54,823 nucleotides of DNA from Candidatus Geothermocultoraceae bacterium (lineage in GTDB: Bacteria; Actinomycetota; Aquicultoria; SKW223; CALKMS01). The DNA lies in assembly GCA_036796755.1 (NCBI GenBank), contig DAIRCJ010000001.1, forward strand, positions 1 to 54,823, given 5' to 3'. A model generated the notes under the pieces. The model worked only from the letters and a program-made list of their open reading frames with translations. It did not search any database and had not been told where the DNA came from. How positions within the stretch are numbered: the first letter of the stretch is position 1; every line of letters starts with the position of its first letter. The position numbers and the translations under genes are program-made. Of this stretch, positions 21,001-26,269 are shown piece by piece.

Positions 21001-21506
21001 ATTCCTTCACCAAAAAAGGCGATATGATGGCTAATTTTACTCTGGAGGACTTTGAAGGTTCGTTCCAGATAATTGTTTTTCCTACCGTTCTTACTTCCAA
21101 CCGGGAAAAAATTGCCGATGAAAAAATTATTTTCCTTAAAGGGCGAGTTGACCGACCGGAAGATAAGCAAAATACCAAAATTATTGCTCGGGAAATTTTT
21201 GACTTAAAGGAAGCCAGCGAAATGGAAAAACCATTGAAAGAAGGCCTGGAAAAACCTCAGCCAAAGAAAAAAAAGAAGCTCTTTTTAAAACTGGATTCCG
21301 AAAAGCTTAACTCCGAGTTCAAGGATTATTTAAAACAAGCTTTTCTTAAGTATTCAGGGGATTCCGAAGTTTTTCTTAGATTGCAGGAAGCTGAAAAAGA
21401 GCAGATTTTCCGATTAAGAAAGTATTCAGTTCGAATTTGCCCAGAACTTTTAGCTGAGCTTTCTCATTATCTTGGCCAGCAAAACATAGTTGTTTCCGAA
21501 AATTAA
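18033..21506 (+). CDS. dnaE: DNA polymerase III alpha subunit
   Basis: 1157 aa. Has an N-terminal PHP domain (HLHVHSEFSLLDG), the Pol IIIalpha core and a C-terminal OB fold. No intein-size insertion. Confidence 0.97.
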   Translation: MMGKERNNFVHLHVHSEFSLLDGAIKIPELVERADELGFKALALTDHGAMYGAIDFYQECVEKGIKPIIGCEIYLARHSRFDKSQPKGDSPHHLLLLAENNEGYQNLCQIVTQSYLEGYYYKPRADKELLEKYSGGLIALSACIAGEIPRELINSGDLKKARELAREYQEIFGKENFFLEIQDHGIKEQKIANEGLVKIGRELKIPLVATNDIHYLNARDREAHEVLLCIQTNSTLNDEDRLTFSSDQFYLKSEKEMAKIFADYPEALRNTLWIAERVNLNFDFNSLYLPHYSVPEGYTLESYLRELCFQGAKERFGEEIPQEVKERLEHELQVIEKMGFAGYFLIIWDVINAARERGIRVGPGRGSAAGSLVAYVLKITSINPLDYGLLFERFLNPERRTMPDIDIDFCEDRREEIINYVREKYGEDRVAQIITFSTMKARAAVRDAGRVTGYSYSFVDKLAKLITKETIEQSISEVSEVREKYQNDEDARRILDTARRLEGLVRQDSIHAAGVVISREPLTRLVPLQRKGDAEIVTQYSMGALGKLGLLKMDFLGLRTLTVIENALKLIEENRGIKLDLDSLPLDDEKTYQLIQEGNTVGVFQLEKAGMRELLKELKPTRFEDIVAANALNRPGPIKSGMVRDFIDRKHGRKPIVYPHPLLEKILEETYGTIVYQEQVMGIASELAGYTMAEADILRKAMSKKEKNLLEEQKRIFVSKAVEKGVEKEKAISIFETMAPFVEYAFNKSHSTAYALIAYQTAYLKAHYPIEFLTALLSSVKEDKDKVALYIYEAKKWGIKIFLPDVNKSQEDFSIEGNSIRFGLSAIRNVGSSVVEEIISSRQTRPFQSFLDFLTRVDLSRVNKKAVESLIKAGAFDSLGYKRKELLNSYPLFLEMIQKQKKEQEKGQMSLFGKEEVEETKENIEKLGEFEQSELLSMEKEMLGVYVSGHPLTGLEKLLEFHISHTSSALEETVDGQEIVVGGVITSLKNSFTKKGDMMANFTLEDFEGSFQIIVFPTVLTSNREKIADEKIIFLKGRVDRPEDKQNTKIIAREIFDLKEASEMEKPLKEGLEKPQPKKKKKLFLKLDSEKLNSEFKDYLKQAFLKYSGDSEVFLRLQEAEKEQIFRLRKYSVRICPELLAELSHYLGQQNIVVSEN

Positions 21507-21595
21507 CTTCTTTTTTCAAAATTATATTTGAAATGAAATTACTCACACAAATAAGTTGGACGACATTGCATAAATTGGAATGAAGAAATGTATAA

Positions 21596-22468
21596 ATGAT
21601 ACCAAAGGAACTAAATAAATACGACTATAGAACAAATTTAATAATTGATAAAGACAATCCACTTCTTATTCAAAAAGCGTGGAGGGACCACTTTTCTAAC
21701 AGAAGCCATTGGGATGCCGGTTATGGGGGTCAAGCGTATCTCTCGAGACTAAACAGCGAGGATGCGTTAATTTGGAATGTTTTTAGATCTCTTCAACTTA
21801 GCGGCAAAAAAGGATTAAAAGTAATATCAGAAACGCTTGGAGTATCTAAGGTTGAAAGAATTCTTTTCTGGGGCTGTGACGTTGAACATCAAGGCGATGA
21901 ACAGCAATTGTTGAATATACTAATTCGCACAAGAGACGGTAAACTTTTGGGAACGATGACCGAGCCCGATTTAGTATTAATTACTGATGAGGAAGTTGTT
22001 TTTGTAGATTGTAAGTTGAATATGAGTTCCTATTCATCGCCATGGAAGGCGCAGGGAAAAGGAGCGGAGAAAAGAATGGAAATCTATAGAGATGAATTTA
22101 CTGAGTTGAATTATATTACTGATTGGAAAGATGTTTATCAACTAATTCGTCAATATGTATATGCTAAATTATTAAGCAAATACCTGAAAAAGAAAGCAAT
22201 TATAATACCACTAACTAACAAGACTCATATGAGGTTTTTGTTGAAACACTACCGAAAAATATTAAAGAGCCCTATAAACAAGAATGCTATCTTTCGAAAT
22301 TTTGCAACATGGCAATATCTCGGTGAAAAGATATCGGAAACAAACCTTTCAAACAGAAAAGTTATAGCAGCTAAGATAGATGAGGCTTTGAAAGTAGCAA
22401 GCTATTTGCCCAAAACAAATAATAAGAAGCTTGTGAAGAAGTCGAGGAAAGCTATTAAAAAGGATTAA
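21596..22468 (+). CDS. hypothetical protein, PD-(D/E)xK nuclease-like
   Basis: 290 aa in a very AT-rich stretch. SEDALIWNVFRSL is followed by EPDLVLITDEEVVFVDCKL, which matches a PD...(D/E)xK layout. Has a lysine-rich tail. The assignment rests on the motif only. Confidence 0.45.
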   Translation: MIPKELNKYDYRTNLIIDKDNPLLIQKAWRDHFSNRSHWDAGYGGQAYLSRLNSEDALIWNVFRSLQLSGKKGLKVISETLGVSKVERILFWGCDVEHQGDEQQLLNILIRTRDGKLLGTMTEPDLVLITDEEVVFVDCKLNMSSYSSPWKAQGKGAEKRMEIYRDEFTELNYITDWKDVYQLIRQYVYAKLLSKYLKKKAIIIPLTNKTHMRFLLKHYRKILKSPINKNAIFRNFATWQYLGEKISETNLSNRKVIAAKIDEALKVASYLPKTNNKKLVKKSRKAIKKD

Positions 22469-22749
22469 AAACTCCTGAGGGAGAATGCTGTTTACATAAT
22501 TAAATCGCTTATTGAACTCTGCGGCAAGGCCGAAACAAAAGAAGCTCCTGAAAAGGTTTTTGTAAAAGACAAATTAAATTATTACCTCCTATCATTCTTC
22601 TTCTCGCAACGAACTTGTTGGGAAATAACGCACGCTAGGTGCCGAAAATTTGGTTATGTTTGAAAATTTTCGATTAAATTTATAAGAGTGGAAACTGAAA
22701 GTTTAAAAAATTAGTTATAAATAAGGAGTATTATGGGACAGTTACTAAA

Positions 22750-23109
22750 TTGCGATATTCTGGCCATTATCCACATTTGCGATTTCTCTGGCGCGCTCCT
22801 TGCTTTATAAAAATCGTTTTTACTCTTACTTGGGATATACCAGTCCTTAATACGTTTCATTATGGCGATAAATATAGAATAGATTCGATTGAATTAAGAA
22901 ATCTTGATGTTAAATCTTTAAGAAAAGTATCAGAAAGAGTTACGAAGTATTACAAAGAAGCTTACAATTTTCAACCCAGAGAAAATCCTTTTAACTTTAT
23001 TCCAGAGAAAAAAAGAGAACAGACTCGTTCATTAATAAAATCAATGATAGAGGCTCTCGATTTGATTCGTTTTCACCCTGTAAAATCTGCGAAAACATTA
23101 CTGAGATGA
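22750..23109 (+). CDS. hypothetical small protein, start uncertain
   Basis: 119-aa TTG ORF with no SD. Its stop overlaps the helicase ATG (ATGA at 23106-23109). A well-placed AAGGAG + ATG (22733) opens a different frame (see findings). Confidence 0.35.
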   Translation: MRYSGHYPHLRFLWRAPCFIKIVFTLTWDIPVLNTFHYGDKYRIDSIELRNLDVKSLRKVSERVTKYYKEAYNFQPRENPFNFIPEKKREQTRSLIKSMIEALDLIRFHPVKSAKTLLR

Positions 23110-24356
23110 CTTTTGGTCAAAGCGAAATAAGAAAGCGATTGAAGCGAACATGGGTGACTTTTTTCGGGCGACACGGCAGACTTCTTCCAGTTCAAATCAA
23201 AACAATACCTGTGGTCATGGATGGGAAAAATGCCATTATTATGTCACCCACAGCAAGCGGAAAAACAGAAGCAGTGATTGCACCATTATTGGAAAGATTT
23301 CTCCAAGGAAGTTGGAAGAATTTATCCATACTTTATGTTTCACCAACGAGAGCTCTAGTGAATGATATGTATTATCGATTGGAAGACCAAATGGCTGACT
23401 TTCAAGTAAAGGTATCAATGAAAACAAGCGACAAACCCTCTTTTAAGCCTGATAATCCACCAAATGTCATAATAACCACGCCTGAATCTTTAGATTCATT
23501 GATCTGTCGTCACCCGCAAGCTTTTAGAGATTTACAAGCAGTAGTTCTTGATGAAATACATCTTATTGACAATAACTACCGTGGCGACCAGATTAGGATG
23601 CTTTTAAGAAGATTAGAATCTATTTCTGAAAACAATTTTAACACCTATGCTCTGTCTGCTACCATGGCTGATGCGGAAAGCTTAGGAATCAGGTATATGA
23701 AGGATTTTGAAATTATTCAAATTCCGGGAAGGCGAGAAATTGAATACACATTTGTTCGCTCTTTGCAGGAGGTTTATAAGTATACAAAGGCTGAAAATTT
23801 AAGAAAACTTTTAATTTTTTGCAATACCAGAGCTTTCACGGAGTCACTTTCAGCTGAGTGTAAAAATTCTTGGGGTATGAATAAAGTAGTTGTTCATCAT
23901 GGAAGCTTGAGTAAACAGATTCGCGAGGAAGCAGAAAGTTTTATGAAAGAAACAAAATATGGAGTTTGCGTTGCAACAATGACCTTAGAGATAGGCATTG
24001 ATATTGGAGACATAGATGCAGTTGTCCTTGCTGAAGTTCCCTGGAGTATTTCTTCCTTGCTTCAACGAATAGGAAGGGGAAATCGCCGAAAACAATTTTG
24101 CAGGGTTTTTGCTTTATATAATTCTGAAGAAGAGAAGTTAATGTTTGAAAAAATGATTAACGCAGCTAGAAATGGTAATTTGGAGTCAAAGAGTTATTTC
24201 CCAGATCTATCAGTAGTTATTCAGCAGATTTTTTCGTCCTTATTTGCACAACCGTCTGGACTAGAAGTTAATCATTTTTTAGAGCTCTTCAGCGAATTTT
24301 GTTCGAAGTCTGATTTAATTGATGTTTTGAAACATTTGGAGAAAAGGGGCGGATAG
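23106..24356 (+). CDS. Lhr-like DEAD/DEAH-box (SF2) helicase, N-terminal 416-aa part
   Basis: Helicase motifs: Q (LLPVQ), I (SPTASGKTEA), Ia (YVSPTRALVND), TTPESLDS, II (VLDEIH), III (SAT), HHGSLS, VATMTLEIGIDIGDID and VI (QRIGRGNRR). The ORF ends abruptly at TAG 24354-24356, inside what looks like a winged-helix domain. Confidence 0.85.
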   Translation: MTFGQSEIRKRLKRTWVTFFGRHGRLLPVQIKTIPVVMDGKNAIIMSPTASGKTEAVIAPLLERFLQGSWKNLSILYVSPTRALVNDMYYRLEDQMADFQVKVSMKTSDKPSFKPDNPPNVIITTPESLDSLICRHPQAFRDLQAVVLDEIHLIDNNYRGDQIRMLLRRLESISENNFNTYALSATMADAESLGIRYMKDFEIIQIPGRREIEYTFVRSLQEVYKYTKAENLRKLLIFCNTRAFTESLSAECKNSWGMNKVVVHHGSLSKQIREEAESFMKETKYGVCVATMTLEIGIDIGDIDAVVLAEVPWSISSLLQRIGRGNRRKQFCRVFALYNSEEEKLMFEKMINAARNGNLESKSYFPDLSVVIQQIFSSLFAQPSGLEVNHFLELFSEFCSKSDLIDVLKHLEKRGG

Positions 24357-24394
24357 AAAAAAAGGGAAGTAGGTGGTATGCGACTACCAGATTA

Positions 24395-24718
24395 ATGGAG
24401 GATGGTGAAAAAGGGAAAATTCACTCAAATATTCCTCCTGCAGAAGCATTCAAGGTCATTGATACAGTAACAAGAAAGATAATTGGGGAAGTGAATTTTC
24501 CAGTTGATGATATTTTTGTTCTGGCAGGAAGAATTTGGAAAATAGTTTCTGTCGAAGGAAACTTGAATAAAATTTATGCAAAACCATGGGGAGGTAAAGC
24601 TTATAATCCACGATTCAGGATTCACAACCAAAAGGGCCGCTTCTTTTATCTTCTACCCGAGAACATAAAGGAAAGAATAAAAAACCAAATTGACCTGCCA
24701 ATATCAGGTTTTAGTTAA
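24395..24718 (+). CDS. C-terminal fragment of the same Lhr-like helicase (frame -1 relative to 23106-24356)
   Basis: This frame is open from 24323. Reading IEKKGSRWYATTRLMEDGEKGKIHSNIP...VLAGRIWKIVSVEG...KIYAKPWGG resembles the Lhr WH / SH3-like domain 4. It has no SD of its own. Confidence 0.6.
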   Translation: MEDGEKGKIHSNIPPAEAFKVIDTVTRKIIGEVNFPVDDIFVLAGRIWKIVSVEGNLNKIYAKPWGGKAYNPRFRIHNQKGRFFYLLPENIKERIKNQIDLPISGFS

Positions 24719-24949
24719 TCCAACTAGCTTACAAACAAAGTATTTAACGGGCTTGCAGCCAAGATTTTAAAGGTTTCAAAACTTTCAAATTTCTTAACCT
24801 CTTTCTTACTCCATTTGGAGAATAGGGATTAAAGATTATTCAAAAATTTAATAGTAATCCCAAAATTTAGATTTGAGGGTCTAATCTGTTAAAGTTGGTA
24901 AGATTTATCTTGCTAAACTTATTGGTTATCGGTATTCTTACCAATTGAA

Positions 24950-26269
24950 ATGATAGAAATTAAGACGGTTCTTGTTGATAACTCAAACATCAATGATTTC
25001 AAAGAGAGTTTAAGAGAAAAGAATCGGCTGAAGCTGAAAAAACTGGCCCAGGTCCGAAAAATCATCGAAGAGGTTCTGAAAGAAAAAGACCGAGCTCTTT
25101 TCCTTTTAACAAAGGAGTTTGACGGGGTAGACCTTGAAGAAAAGGGTCTTCGAGTTACCGAGAGGGAAATAAAAGAGGCTTTAAAAAAAGCTGACCCTGC
25201 CTTTCTTGACCTTTTTCAGAAAGCACGAAAGAGAATTGAAAACTTTGCCTGCCAGGAGTTCCAGAAGATAAAAAGCTGGAGCTATAAAGATGGTCTGGGC
25301 AATGAATTGGGTCAGGTTTTTAAACCAGTAAAAAGAGCAGGATTTTATATCCCCGGCGGACGAGCTTTTTACCCTTCCACTCTTTTAATGAATATCATTC
25401 CGGCTAAAGTGGCAGGGGTAAAAGAAGTAGTCGTTTGCACTCCACCCGGGCCTGATGGGAAAGTTATTTCGGAAATTCTGGTTGCTTCAAGTCTTCTTGA
25501 GGTTAATGAAGTTTATCGGGTAGGGGGAGCTCAGGCTATAGCTGCTCTGGCTTACGGTACGGAAACAATCAAACCGGTTGATTTGATTGCTGGCCCGGGA
25601 AACATTTATGTGACCCTGGCTAAAAAGGAAGTTTTTGGCGAAGTGGGGATTGATTTACTGGCTGGCCCCAGCGAGATTGTAATACTGGCGGATGAAAATG
25701 CCAGCCCCGATTTAATCGCCGCCGATTTGCTGGCTCAAGCCGAGCACGACCCGGACTCTTTCTGCGCCCTGGTAACTACCTCCGGCGAACTTATTTTAAA
25801 GGTGAGAAAGGCTATAAACGAACAGATATCAGCTTTTTCAAAAAAAGAGGTGGCTCTAAAAGCCTTAAGAAGAAATGGCCTTCTAATTAACTGTTCCAGT
25901 CTTGAGTTAGCCATTGAGCTGGTTAATTTTTTTGCTCCCGAACATCTGGAGCTAATGCTTACTTCAGTTAATGAAGTGGTAAAACAAATTGAAAACTGTG
26001 GGGCTTTATTTATCGGCGAAAACTCACCGGTGGTGGCCGGTGATTATCTAGCTGGTCCCAGCCATACTTTGCCGACTTCTTTTTCTGCTCGATTTTTTTC
26101 GCCCTTATCGGTGCGAACTTTTCTAACCAGTTTTTCCACGGTTGAGCTGAGCTCAAAAGGTTTTCGGGAGCTGGCTCCAGAAATAATTGATTTTGCCCTT
26201 CTTGAAGGCCTTGAAGCTCACGCTGAGGCGATCAAAATAAGGCTTAACAAACAAAGAAATGAGTCTTAA
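24950..26269 (+). CDS. hisD: histidinol dehydrogenase
   Basis: 439 aa. Has GGAQAIAALAYGTE, AGPSE and LAQAEHDPDS. Confidence 0.95.
   Translation: MIEIKTVLVDNSNINDFKESLREKNRLKLKKLAQVRKIIEEVLKEKDRALFLLTKEFDGVDLEEKGLRVTEREIKEALKKADPAFLDLFQKARKRIENFACQEFQKIKSWSYKDGLGNELGQVFKPVKRAGFYIPGGRAFYPSTLLMNIIPAKVAGVKEVVVCTPPGPDGKVISEILVASSLLEVNEVYRVGGAQAIAALAYGTETIKPVDLIAGPGNIYVTLAKKEVFGEVGIDLLAGPSEIVILADENASPDLIAADLLAQAEHDPDSFCALVTTSGELILKVRKAINEQISAFSKKEVALKALRRNGLLINCSSLELAIELVNFFAPEHLELMLTSVNEVVKQIENCGALFIGENSPVVAGDYLAGPSHTLPTSFSARFFSPLSVRTFLTSFSTVELSSKGFRELAPEIIDFALLEGLEAHAEAIKIRLNKQRNES

What the first reader, a model, noticed from the sequence alone, without database searches (positions are those of the whole stretch)
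21507..24949. Accessory cassette between dnaE and hisD: PD-(D/E)xK-like protein + small ORF + Lhr-like helicase (candidate nuclease-helicase module)
Seen in the sequence: this is the only block in the window with no housekeeping role. It fills the gap between the dnaE stop (21506) and the hisD start (24950), and it is punctuated by 89-, 281- and 231-bp spacers. Spot G+C counts are 15/60 for the lines starting at 21601 and 22141. They are 24-26/60 for the lines at 23461, 24001 and 25381 (hisD). So at least the first gene is compositionally foreign; I did not count the spacers. Gene 1 (290 aa) carries SEDALIWNVFRSL ... EPDLVLITDEEVVFVDCKL, a PD...(D/E)xK layout. The helicase has a complete SF2 motif set (SPTASGKTEA, VLDEIH, SAT, QRIGRGNRR). 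Its ATG overlaps the stop of the 119-aa ORF (ATGA), which indicates translational coupling. From established knowledge: nuclease plus SF2-helicase pairs are a recurrent anti-phage architecture (for example Hachiman HamA/HamB), while Lhr-type helicases otherwise act in DNA repair. Inference: this may be an uncharacterised nuclease-helicase defence or repair module. The helicase (about 540 aa if rejoined) is much shorter than HamB, and I cannot place the set in any named system.
Basis: partly seen in the sequence, partly recalled or inferred. Interest (0 to 1): 0.7.

Follow-up and report, generated by a model that had tools for sequence, protein, structure and literature searches.

The report
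Orphan nuclease gene plus dead helicase-system relic
The 3.4-kb block between dnaE and hisD is a foreign insertion made of two unrelated pieces, an intact solitary restriction-endonuclease-like gene and the broken tail end of a four-gene ATPase/helicase system, so it is not a new nuclease-helicase module.

Summary
In detail: ORFs, spacers, G+C counts, motifs and the ATGA overlap are all as described. The interpretation as a nuclease-helicase module does not hold.

- The nearest relatives (DnaE 82-86% identical) have the same gene order, but dnaE is followed directly by hisD. The block (~21515-24904, GC 0.35 against 0.42) is therefore a lineage-specific insertion.
- The 290-aa protein is an intact member of Pfam PF22558 (REase-ARP, which NCBI names the "PGN_0703 family") with a PD-(D/E)xK motif.
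- The "119-aa ORF" is the last ~125 codons of a BrxD-type ATPase.
- The helicase is a BrxHI/Lhr-like gene broken by a 1-nt deletion, which an independent assembly reproduces.
- In 50 of 56 genomes with enough upstream sequence, orthologues of this helicase end a conserved four-gene operon: unknown 280-aa protein, BrxD-like ATPase, BrxD-like ATPase, helicase. The ATPase-helicase junction there has the same 4-bp overlap.
- In the window, the first two genes and 70% of the third are missing.
- The nuclease and helicase families never co-occur: 0 of 79 and 0 of 80 loci.

Verdict: an ordinary defence-islet relic plus an orphan nuclease. Interest is low. The intact four-gene operon elsewhere, which I could not match to a named system, is the more interesting lead.

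The parts
21507..21514 (.). Native sequence just downstream of the dnaE stop (CTTCTTTT). It is shared with the empty site of relative L336 (CTTCTTAT).
   Evidence: Junction alignment.
21515..24904 (.). Inserted foreign segment of about 3.39 kb (borders +/- about 4 bp). No terminal direct or inverted repeats, no tRNA, no integrase.
   Evidence: Empty sites in L336, L337, L338 and L339. Borders. GC 0.350, z = -4.3. No border repeats. No tRNA.
21596..22468 (+). Intact 290-aa solitary PD-(D/E)xK nuclease-fold gene of Pfam PF22558 (REase-ARP; NCBI 'PGN_0703 family putative restriction endonuclease'). The motif residues are E55/D56, P124-D125 and D138-C-K140, followed by Q182xxR185. It carries a 21-residue Lys-rich C-terminal tail that homologues lack.
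   Evidence: AF2 model with pLDDT 91. Foldseek hits are weak but nuclease-enriched.
22469..22725 (.). Spacer of unknown origin between the nuclease gene and the ATPase fragment. It shows no detectable homology to g1, ATPase 1 or the ATPase 2 N-terminus, or to any fetched locus.
   Evidence: HMM scan of the six-frame translation; blastn and tblastx against 343 loci.
22726..23109 (+). 3' fragment of a BrxD-type (PF10923) AAA+ ATPase, 'ATPase 2' of the ancestral operon. Only profile positions 321-444 of 449 remain, and the P-loop half is missing. The called 119-aa ORF (22750-23109, TTG) is this fragment.
   Evidence: tblastn E = 3e-18 to L012 ATPase 2 residues 306-438. HMM E = 7e-30. Alignment to the C-terminal columns.
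23106..24356 (+). Helicase pseudogene, 5' part: both RecA-like domains and the start of the winged-helix region of a compact BrxHI/Lhr-like SF2 helicase. Its ATG overlaps the ATPase-fragment stop (ATGA), as in intact operons.
   Evidence: HMM positions 6-415 at 23118-24347. The same 4-bp overlap occurs in L011, L012 and L014.
24335..24352 (+). Frameshift site. A 1-nt deletion in or next to the run AAAAGGGGCGG moves the reading frame by -1 and creates the TAG at 24354-24356.
   Evidence: The two HMM segments overlap at 24335-24347 in different frames. Frame translation. The sequence is identical in the independent assembly L001.
24335..24718 (+). Helicase pseudogene, 3' part in the -1 frame: the rest of the winged helix plus a beta-barrel-like C-terminal domain. 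The called 107-aa ORF is 24395-24718.
   Evidence: HMM positions 412-526, E = 3e-39. tblastn to L011, L012 and L014 helicases.
24905..24949 (+). Native hisD upstream region, 91% identical to the dnaE-hisD intergenic region of relative L336.
   Evidence: blastn: window 24905-24950 matches L336 11479-11524. Alignment.

Best explanation
The block is a horizontally acquired, low-GC islet inserted into the dnaE-hisD intergenic region of this lineage only. It holds two unrelated cargoes.

(1) An intact, solitary PD-(D/E)xK endonuclease-fold gene of the PF22558 / 'PGN_0703' family. In other genomes this family sits alone in unrelated neighbourhoods, with no methyltransferase or helicase partner. It is probably the only working gene in the block. 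By inference it is a metal-dependent DNA endonuclease that acts alone. Whether it works as a modification-dependent restriction enzyme or has some other role is not shown.

(2) The 3'-terminal 2 kb of a conserved four-gene operon: unknown ~280-aa protein 'g1', BrxD-like ATPase 1, BrxD-like ATPase 2, and a compact BrxHI/Lhr-like helicase. In intact copies, the two ORC/Cdc6-type ATPases presumably load or activate the helicase on target DNA. That is an inference by analogy with the role proposed for the BrxD-BrxHI pair of type-2 BREX in PMC12839542.

In the window g1, ATPase 1 and the N-terminal 70% of ATPase 2 (including its P-loop) are gone, and a 1-nt deletion has split the helicase. The system is therefore dead. 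The '119-aa ORF' and the ATGA overlap are leftovers of the ATPase2-helicase junction. They are not a small adaptor gene coupled to the helicase.
For: Insertion:
- Three relatives with DnaE 82-86% identical keep the metK...gltX-dnaE-hisD-his operon order, with only 49, 183 or 220 bp between dnaE and hisD.
- Both window flanks align to the L336 empty site.
- GC is 0.350 against 0.420 +/- 0.016.

Relic:
- The rejoined helicase is 65% identical over 97-98% of its length to ~525-aa homologues.
- In L011, L012 and L014 the operon is g1-BrxC_BrxD-BrxC_BrxD-helicase with a 4-bp overlap at the helicase start.
- 50 of 56 GTDB loci with at least 4.3 kb upstream keep all four genes in order.
- Even helicases only 32% identical, on plasmids, keep the layout.
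- Window 22726-23103 matches ATPase 2 profile positions 321-444 of 449 (E = 7e-30). Nothing matches g1, ATPase 1 or ATPase 2 positions 1-320.
- The frameshift is mapped to 24335-24352 and is identical in an independent Logan assembly from another run.

Nuclease:
- PF22558 scores above its gathering cut-off.
- It is 72% identical to its nearest homologue, and all 38 invariant family columns are present.
- The model is confident, and its weak fold hits are enriched in PD-(D/E)xK nucleases.

No linkage:
- 0 of 79 nuclease loci have the helicase orthologue or the ATPases, and 0 of 80 helicase loci have the nuclease.
- Close nuclease homologues sit beside unrelated genes: a hydrolase and UPF0182 in Archaeoglobus, AddAB, DUF5615/DUF4365, and a TIR/kinase island.
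Against: - The rejoined helicase still keeps 105 of 109 columns that are at least 95% conserved. Its inactivation is therefore recent, and some residual activity of a split protein cannot be excluded.
- The frameshift lies in a short homopolymer. The two agreeing assemblies could share a systematic error or come from the same culture, and I could not inspect reads.
- Foldseek gave no statistically significant structural match for the nuclease (best E = 0.018 in PDB and 5.6e-3 in BFVD). The fold assignment rests on the Pfam profile and the motif.
- No biochemical function is known for any of the families.
- I could not tell whether the two cargoes arrived together or separately.
Confidence: 0.85

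Rival explanations
1. This is a working, previously unseen nuclease-helicase module. The PD-(D/E)xK protein would be the effector. The helicase, made as two polypeptides or by ribosomal -1 frameshifting, would be the sensor or motor, and the 119-aa product an adaptor.
For: The nuclease gene is intact. The helicase keeps 105 of 109 highly conserved columns. All ORFs lie on one strand. Nuclease plus SF2-helicase pairs do exist, for example Hachiman HamAB (PMC12278908).
Against: - The two families never co-occur in 79 + 80 loci.
- The 119-aa ORF is the C-terminal quarter of an ATPase with no ATG and no P-loop.
- 281 bp of unrelated spacer separates the nuclease gene from the rest.
- The nuclease has no hit to HamA or any other PADLOC model.
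- Helicase orthologues almost always come with g1 and two ATPases.
- The shift site is not a canonical X XXY YYZ slippery heptamer (read from the sequence).
Confidence: 0.04
2. The helicase frameshift is a sequencing or assembly error, or a phase-variable run. The helicase would then be intact and work alone as an Lhr-type repair helicase next to dnaE.
For: The break lies in a homopolymer-rich stretch (AAAAGGGGCGG). The rest of the gene is well conserved. Six of 56 loci have a helicase orthologue without upstream ATPases.
Against: - The same sequence appears in an assembly of a different run (L001).
- A G4 run is short for phase variation (general knowledge).
- The closest relatives lack the gene altogether, so it has no conserved repair role at this site.
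- It scores far below the NCBIfam Lhr and ligase-associated helicase cut-offs: 188.6 against 850 bits.
- Its translational start is coupled to a truncated gene that has no start of its own.
Confidence: 0.06
3. The history differs from a single event: there were two separate insertions at a hot spot. An older four-gene system decayed in place, and the nuclease gene arrived later and deleted g1, ATPase 1 and the 5' part of ATPase 2. The alternative is one acquisition of a fragment that was already composite.
For: The dnaE-hisD spacer varies among relatives (49, 183 and 220 bp). The two cargoes have different phylogenetic partners and never travel together. A weak 28-nt repeat of the dnaE end (21496-21523) occurs at 22642-22669 (71% identity).
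Against: No relative with an intact system at this site was found. GC is similar for both parts (0.351 against 0.33-0.37). The repeat is within chance range. There are no mobile-element signatures.
Confidence: 0.4

Closest known systems
BrxD-BrxHI pair of type-2 BREX (Pgl)
   Same: The helicase's best PADLOC model is BrxHI (8.8e-71 for the window, 4.8e-80 for the intact homologue P0105). The upstream ATPases of intact operons hit BrxD (5.9e-39 and 4.9e-17) and Pfam BrxC_BrxD PF10923. As in BREX, the ATPase and helicase genes are tightly linked (PMC12839542).
   Different: No PglX, PglZ, BrxC or PglW is present in the window or in intact relatives. There are two ATPase paralogues plus an unknown 280-aa protein. 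The helicase (~525 aa) covers only positions ~21-521 of the 698-position BrxHI profile, so it lacks the C-terminal Lhr-CTD-like domain. In the window the set is truncated and frameshifted.
Shango (SngA TerB protein, SngB ATPase, SngC helicase)
   Same: SngC is the second-best model for the helicase (3.1e-67) and SngB for ATPase 1 (9.5e-22). The logic is the same: an ATPase plus an Lhr-like helicase.
   Different: No TerB-domain protein is present. g1 has no TerB, Pfam or PADLOC hit. There are two ATPases instead of one. The helicase is shorter than the SngC profile (720 positions).
Hachiman (HamA nuclease + HamB helicase)
   Different: The 290-aa protein hits no HamA or DUF1837 model. HamB models score 1e-20 or worse, against 9e-71 for BrxHI. 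The two families are not genomically linked.
Pfam PF22558 REase-ARP / NCBI 'PGN_0703 family putative restriction endonuclease'
   Same: The 290-aa protein passes the Pfam gathering score (30.4 against 27 bits). It is 72% identical to its nearest homologue, and all invariant family residues are present.
   Different: It has a 21-residue Lys-rich C-terminal extension. It has Asp instead of the usual Glu at the (D/E)xK position 138. No family member has an experimentally known function in the sources I could search.
Lhr / Lhr-core DNA-repair helicases
   Same: Same SF2 DEAD/Helicase_C core followed by a winged helix and a small barrel domain. Database names of the homologues are 'Lhr-like helicase'.
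   Different: It scores far below the NCBIfam equivalog cut-offs (TIGR04121: 188.6 against 850 bits; PRK13767: 170 against 849). It sits in an operon with BrxD-like ATPases, not in a repair context.

Membership tests
Pfam PF22558 (REase-ARP) / PGN_0703 family | Whole-protein score above the curated gathering cut-off | tested here: met
   30.4 bits against a cut-off of 27, covering residues 27-251. Homologues carry the same precomputed Pfam assignment.
Pfam PF22558 (REase-ARP) / PGN_0703 family | PD-(D/E)xK catalytic constellation conserved | tested here: met
   E55/D56, P124-D125, (E/D)138-C139-K140 and Q182/R185 are invariant or nearly so in 28 sequences. The window has D at 138.
Pfam PF22558 (REase-ARP) / PGN_0703 family | Restriction-endonuclease fold confirmed by structure comparison | tested here: inconclusive
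   The AF2 model has pLDDT 91. The best Foldseek E-values are 0.018 (PDB) and 5.6e-3 (BFVD), which are not significant. Top hits are nonetheless cap-snatching endonucleases, EcoO109I, and phage 'PD-(D/E)XK nuclease' and 'restriction endonuclease' proteins. A PDB sequence-profile search found nothing.
Classical type II restriction-modification | Cognate DNA methyltransferase adjacent to the endonuclease | tested here: not met
   No methyltransferase is present in the insert, or next to homologues in Archaeoglobus, Eisenbacteria or the metagenome contigs.
Four-gene g1 / BrxD-like / BrxD-like / BrxHI-like operon (unnamed) | Helicase orthologue (~525 aa) | tested here: met
   Present but frameshifted: 716 + 128 bits to the family HMM and 65% identity over 97-98% of its length.
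Four-gene g1 / BrxD-like / BrxD-like / BrxHI-like operon (unnamed) | Complete ATPase 2 with P-loop directly upstream, overlapping the helicase start | tested here: not met
   Only profile positions 321-444 of 449 remain. The 4-bp overlap is retained.
Four-gene g1 / BrxD-like / BrxD-like / BrxHI-like operon (unnamed) | ATPase 1 and g1 present upstream | tested here: not met
   No match better than E = 0.03 anywhere in 21400-25000 in six frames. The 290-aa nuclease is not homologous to g1.
BREX type 2 | PglX methyltransferase, PglZ phosphatase, BrxC and PglW alongside BrxD/BrxHI | tested here: not met
   None is present in the window, or in the intact relatives L011, L012 and L014.
Shango | TerB-domain protein SngA | tested here: not met
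   There is no TerB hit for any window ORF, or for g1 of the intact operons in Pfam or PADLOC.
Hachiman | HamA (DUF1837) nuclease paired with a HamB helicase | tested here: not met
   The 290-aa protein matches 0 PADLOC families. HamB models are weak secondary hits (1e-20) compared with BrxHI (9e-71).
Lhr / ligase-associated DEXH helicase | Score above the NCBIfam equivalog cut-off | tested here: not met
   TIGR04121 scores 188.6 against 850 bits; PRK13767 scores 170.2 against 849; PRK09751 scores 100 against 1496.
Mobile genetic element (IS, integrative island or prophage) | Terminal repeats, an integrase or transposase, a tRNA target, or phage or plasmid homology | tested here: not met
   No border repeats and no tRNA in the window. 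The nuclease has no PHROG, phage or plasmid hits. No recombinase ORF is present.

The most novel reading that the evidence does not exclude
The helicase relic in the window points to a conserved four-gene operon found across Archaea and Bacteria. Its genes are a ~280-aa protein with no detectable domain, two paralogous BrxD-type ORC/Cdc6-like ATPases (the second sometimes carries an N-terminal Tudor/CarD-like domain), and a compact BrxHI/Lhr-like helicase that lacks the Lhr C-terminal domain.

This operon has no BREX methylation or PglZ core and no Shango TerB protein. I could not find it as a named system in PADLOC v2 models or in the papers I could search. It may be an undescribed stand-alone defence (or DNA-surveillance) system in which two ATPases load a helicase. 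The window would then record its decay.

A much less likely reading is that the orphan nuclease has been recruited to the surviving helicase (probability about 0.04).
Probability: 0.35. Interest if true: 0.55.

Novelty: new member of a known kind. Interest (0 to 1): 0.2.

Why it matters
For this window it matters little. The block is a small defence-type islet in decay, and its genes belong to catalogued families. The analysis guards against three annotation errors:
- calling a gene fragment a 'small coupled ORF';
- calling a pseudogene a helicase;
- inferring a system from adjacency alone.

Two by-products could be useful. First, the PF22558/PGN_0703 nucleases appear to be solitary, highly mobile genes with no fixed partner, which makes them candidates for stand-alone (possibly modification-dependent) restriction. 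Second, the g1-BrxD-BrxD-BrxHI-like operon is widespread (50 of 56 loci are complete), is carried on plasmids, and is apparently unnamed. It could be tested directly for anti-phage activity and for the proposed ATPase-loads-helicase mechanism.

Tried and rejected
Searches that led nowhere:
- A single-sequence scan of GTDB genomes with the 290-aa protein found nothing. An alignment-based scan was needed.
- HisD-based scans of genome contigs and metagenome contigs returned only relatives 45-50% identical, because the chosen peptide patterns are universally conserved. They gave no information about the junction. A DnaE protein search solved this instead.
- The exact-cluster look-up gave no organism names, so the organism stays unidentified. 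The nearest named DnaE relatives, at 53-59% identity, are uncultured Actinomycetota MAGs.
- Literature searches for 'REase-ARP', PGN_0703/PF22558 and DUF2791/PF10923 found nothing useful. I could not establish what 'ARP' stands for.
- A PDB sequence-profile search for the nuclease gave no hit.

Ideas considered and rejected:
- g1 of the intact operon as a homologue of the 290-aa nuclease: tblastn and HMM both show no similarity.
- Border repeats or target-site duplication: none convincing.
- Phage or plasmid origin of the nuclease: no matches.
- A conserved partner for the nuclease: the largest neighbour cluster is a WYL-type regulator in only 8 of 79 loci, all distant ones.
- The RBS-like AAGGAG plus ATG at 22734: it opens only a 25-codon ORF in another frame, so I treat it as chance.

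Full report
**What is there.** Between the dnaE stop (21506) and the hisD start (24950) there are four same-strand ORFs:
- 21596-22468 (290 aa)
- 22750-23109 (119 aa, TTG start)
- 23106-24356 (416 aa)
- 24395-24718 (107 aa)

The spacers are 89, 281 and 231 bp. Over its full length the block has GC 0.350. All other 3.4-kb windows of the 54.8-kb sequence average 0.420 +/- 0.016 with a minimum of 0.387, so z = -4.3. GC3 of its ORFs is 0.23-0.33, against 0.37-0.42 in the flanking genes. The quoted motifs and the ATGA overlap at 23106-23109 are present.

**It is an insertion.**
- A protein search with DnaE found three close relatives (86, 83 and 82% identity).
- Their contigs have the same gene order as the window, from metK through gltX-dnaE and on into hisD-hisB-hisH-hisA-hisF-hisIE-pnp.
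- In them dnaE is followed by hisD after only 49 bp (L336), 220 bp (L337 and L338) or 183 bp (L339).
- Aligning the junctions shows that the 8 nt after the window's dnaE stop, and its last ~45 nt before hisD (24905-24949, 91% identical to L336), are the two halves of the L336 spacer.
- The insert therefore runs from about 21515 to 24904, roughly 3.39 kb.
- It has no terminal direct or inverted repeats beyond chance. The window has no tRNA, the block has no recombinase ORF, and promoter- and terminator-like sites are not enriched.

**Gene 1: the nuclease-fold protein.**
- The 290-aa protein passes the gathering threshold of Pfam PF22558, 'REase-ARP', with 30.4 against 27 bits.
- It has 99 homologues with E below 1e-3, typically 265-290 aa. 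The nearest is 72% identical. One cluster is named by NCBI 'PGN_0703 family putative restriction endonuclease'.
- In an alignment of 28 members the residues E55/D56, P124-D125, (E/D)138-C-K140 and Q182/R185 are invariant or nearly so. That is a PD...(D/E)xK layout. The window protein keeps all 38 invariant residues, has Asp at 138, and adds a 21-residue Lys-rich tail.
- An AlphaFold2 model from this alignment is confident (pLDDT 91, pTM 0.88). It places the motif residues on an alpha-beta-beta-beta core.
- Foldseek finds no significant match: best E = 0.018 in PDB and 5.6e-3 in BFVD. The top of both lists is still dominated by PD-(D/E)xK enzymes: bunyavirus and arenavirus cap-snatching endonucleases, EcoO109I, AF1548, and phage 'PD-(D/E)XK nuclease' and 'restriction endonuclease' proteins.
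- It has no PADLOC hit (so neither HamA, Cap4 nor Shedu), no PHROG hit, and no relative in the phage or plasmid collections.
- I accept the nuclease fold on the profile and the motif. The structural test is inconclusive.

**The helicase.**
- The 416-aa ORF has DEAD and Helicase_C domains. Its best PADLOC models are BrxHI (8.8e-71) and SngC of Shango (3.1e-67). HamB models reach only about 1e-20.
- It falls far below the NCBIfam cut-offs for Lhr-type and ligase-associated helicases.
- The reading frame of the 107-aa ORF is open upstream to 24323. It reads ...RIEKKGSRWYATTRLMEDGEKGKIH..., which continues the family consensus.
- A family HMM matches positions 6-415 at 23118-24347 in one frame and positions 412-526 at 24335-24685 in the -1 frame. 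A single-base deletion in or next to AAAAGGGGCGG (24340-24352) therefore split the gene.
- An independent Logan assembly from another sequencing run (L001) spans the frameshift and is 100% identical to the window. A second (L002) is also 100% identical but ends at 23732, before the frameshift.
- Rejoined (537 aa), the protein aligns over 97-98% of ~525-aa homologues from Aciduliprofundum, Cloacimonadota, ANME-1, Methanoperedens and others at up to 65% identity.
- It keeps 105 of the 109 columns that are at least 95% conserved, so the lesion is recent.

**The '119-aa ORF' is a gene fragment.**
- I looked up the genomic context of three helicase homologues: Aciduliprofundum CP003168, a Methanoperedens contig, and a Thermoanaerobacterium-like contig.
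- All three show the same operon: a ~281-aa protein with no Pfam family (g1), a ~410-aa BrxC_BrxD (PF10923) ATPase, a second 430-500-aa BrxC_BrxD ATPase, and the helicase. The helicase ATG overlaps the ATPase stop by 4 bp.
- tblastn of these proteins against the window places ATPase 2 residues 306-438 on 22699-23106 (E = 3e-18).
- An HMM built from 62 ATPase 2 sequences matches only its positions 321-444 of 449, at 22726-23103 (E = 7e-30).
- Nothing in 21400-25000, in any frame, matches g1, ATPase 1 or the first 320 positions of ATPase 2, which include the P-loop.
- The TTG 'start' simply follows from how ORFs are listed. The ATGA overlap is the ancestral ATPase2-helicase junction.

**How general is the operon?**
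- An alignment-based scan of GTDB species representatives returned 80 helicase loci.
- Of the 56 loci with at least 4.3 kb upstream, 50 carry g1, ATPase 1, ATPase 2 and the helicase in order on one strand. Six have the helicase alone (L227 was counted complete after inspection).
- Plasmid-borne helicases only 32% identical (Desulfomonile tiedjei pDESTI.01, Aulosira laxa plasmid 3) keep the layout. RefSeq (PGAP) names the ATPases on the Desulfomonile plasmid 'BREX system ATP-binding domain-containing protein'.
- ATPase 1 hits PADLOC BrxD (5.9e-39) and SngB (9.5e-22). ATPase 2 hits BrxD through its N-terminal part only. g1 hits nothing in PADLOC, Pfam or PHROGs.
- The operon is thus a relative of the BrxD-BrxHI pair of type-2 BREX, described as a tightly linked dyad in which BrxD may load or activate BrxHI (PMC12839542). 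It is also a relative of Shango, whose third component is a TerB protein (bioRxiv 10.1101/2022.05.11.491447).
- It lacks the BREX core and the TerB protein, and it has two ATPases.

**Are the nuclease and the helicase linked?** No.
- Of 79 GTDB loci with PF22558-family relatives, none has the helicase orthologue or a BrxD-like ATPase within 10 kb. Only generic SF2 hits of 86 bits or less appear, against 716 bits for the true orthologue.
- None of the 80 helicase loci contains the nuclease.
- Close nuclease homologues sit in unrelated places: between a hydrolase and UPF0182 in Archaeoglobus; in a TIR/kinase/AAA_13 island in an Eisenbacteria MAG; next to AddAB; and next to DUF5615/DUF4365 genes.
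- The most frequent neighbour family, a WYL-type regulator, occurs in only 8 of 79 loci, all distant ones.
- No methyltransferase accompanies the nuclease anywhere I looked.

**Conclusion and mechanism.**
- The block is a composite islet.
- The nuclease gene is probably functional and acts alone. I infer a metal-dependent DNA endonuclease. Because it never has a methyltransferase, a modification-dependent (type-IV-like) or other stand-alone role is more plausible than classical restriction-modification. This step is inference only.
- The rest is the dead tail of a four-gene ATPase/helicase system. It lacks g1, ATPase 1 and the catalytic half of ATPase 2, and its helicase is split, so it cannot work as its intact relatives presumably do.
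- Whether the two pieces arrived together or in two steps cannot be decided. No relative with an intermediate state was found.

**Scores.** Interest is low for the window itself (0.2). Novelty: new members of known kinds. The more interesting by-product is the intact four-gene operon elsewhere, which I could not match to a named system.

Noticed in passing
L011 3634-8584; L012 3581-8572; L014 3417-8611; L176-L255; L344 3644-9070; L345 3664-9058: A conserved four-gene operon: ~280-aa protein without any domain hit, BrxD-like ATPase, second BrxD-like ATPase, and a BrxHI/Lhr-like helicase. It occurs across Archaea and Bacteria and on plasmids, and is complete in 50 of 56 loci with enough flank. 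It has no BREX core and no TerB protein. I found no name for it in PADLOC v2 or in the searchable literature.
   Followed up: partly
L014 5502-7004 (ATPase 2, residues 54-105): In the Thermoanaerobacterium-like operon the second ATPase carries an N-terminal PcrA/UvrD Tudor (CarD/TRCF-RID-like) domain (PF21196, 1.4e-8). This hints at contact with RNA polymerase or another partner. The archaeal copies lack it.
   Followed up: no
L345 1-9058 (Aulosira laxa plasmid 3): The four-gene operon lies immediately downstream of an alkaline-phosphatase-domain (PglZ-like) gene, an ATP/GTP-binding protein and a second DEAD/DEAH helicase. That is, two BrxD/BrxHI-like sets sit in tandem next to a BREX-like remnant.
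   Followed up: no
L188, L232, L237, L239, L252, L255 (also L189, L192, L250): These are helicase orthologues with no g1 or ATPase genes upstream, although several kb of flank are available. L192 keeps a 24-bit ATPase 2 scrap right before the helicase. They may be further relics like the one in the window, or a second architecture.
   Followed up: no
window 22469-22660: The reading frame of the nuclease gene stays open for 64 more codons after its TAA stop (KLLRENAVYIIKSLIELCGK...). There is no homology to anything fetched, so the origin is unknown.
   Followed up: partly
window 21496-21523 and 22642-22669: A 28-nt imperfect direct repeat (71% identity) of the dnaE end and junction (CCGAAAATTAACTTC...) recurs just upstream of the ATPase fragment. 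It could mark a second insertion border, or it could be chance.
   Followed up: no
L111, L120, L124, L129, L134, L153, L163, L170: Distant PF22558-family members (40-65 bits) have an HTH-WYL-type regulator gene next to them on the same strand in 8 loci. This is the only recurrent neighbour found for the nuclease family.
   Followed up: no
L336 11475-11523; L339 11478-11660; L337 11478-11697: The dnaE-hisD spacer differs in length and sequence among the closest relatives (49, 183 and 220 bp), while the last ~40 nt before hisD are conserved. The site appears to be a small variable spot.
   Followed up: partly
whole window: The organism has no close relative among GTDB species representatives: the best HisD match is 50% identical. 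The nearest named DnaE relatives, at 53-59% identity, are uncultured Actinomycetota MAGs. The two cargo genes have their closest homologues in thermophilic or anaerobic archaea and Cloacimonadota.
   Followed up: partly
L337 372-1568: In relative GCA_964426525.1 the metK gene is called as two ORFs (264 + 108 aa), whereas the window, L336 and L339 have one 398-aa gene. This is a likely frameshift or assembly error in that MAG.
   Followed up: no
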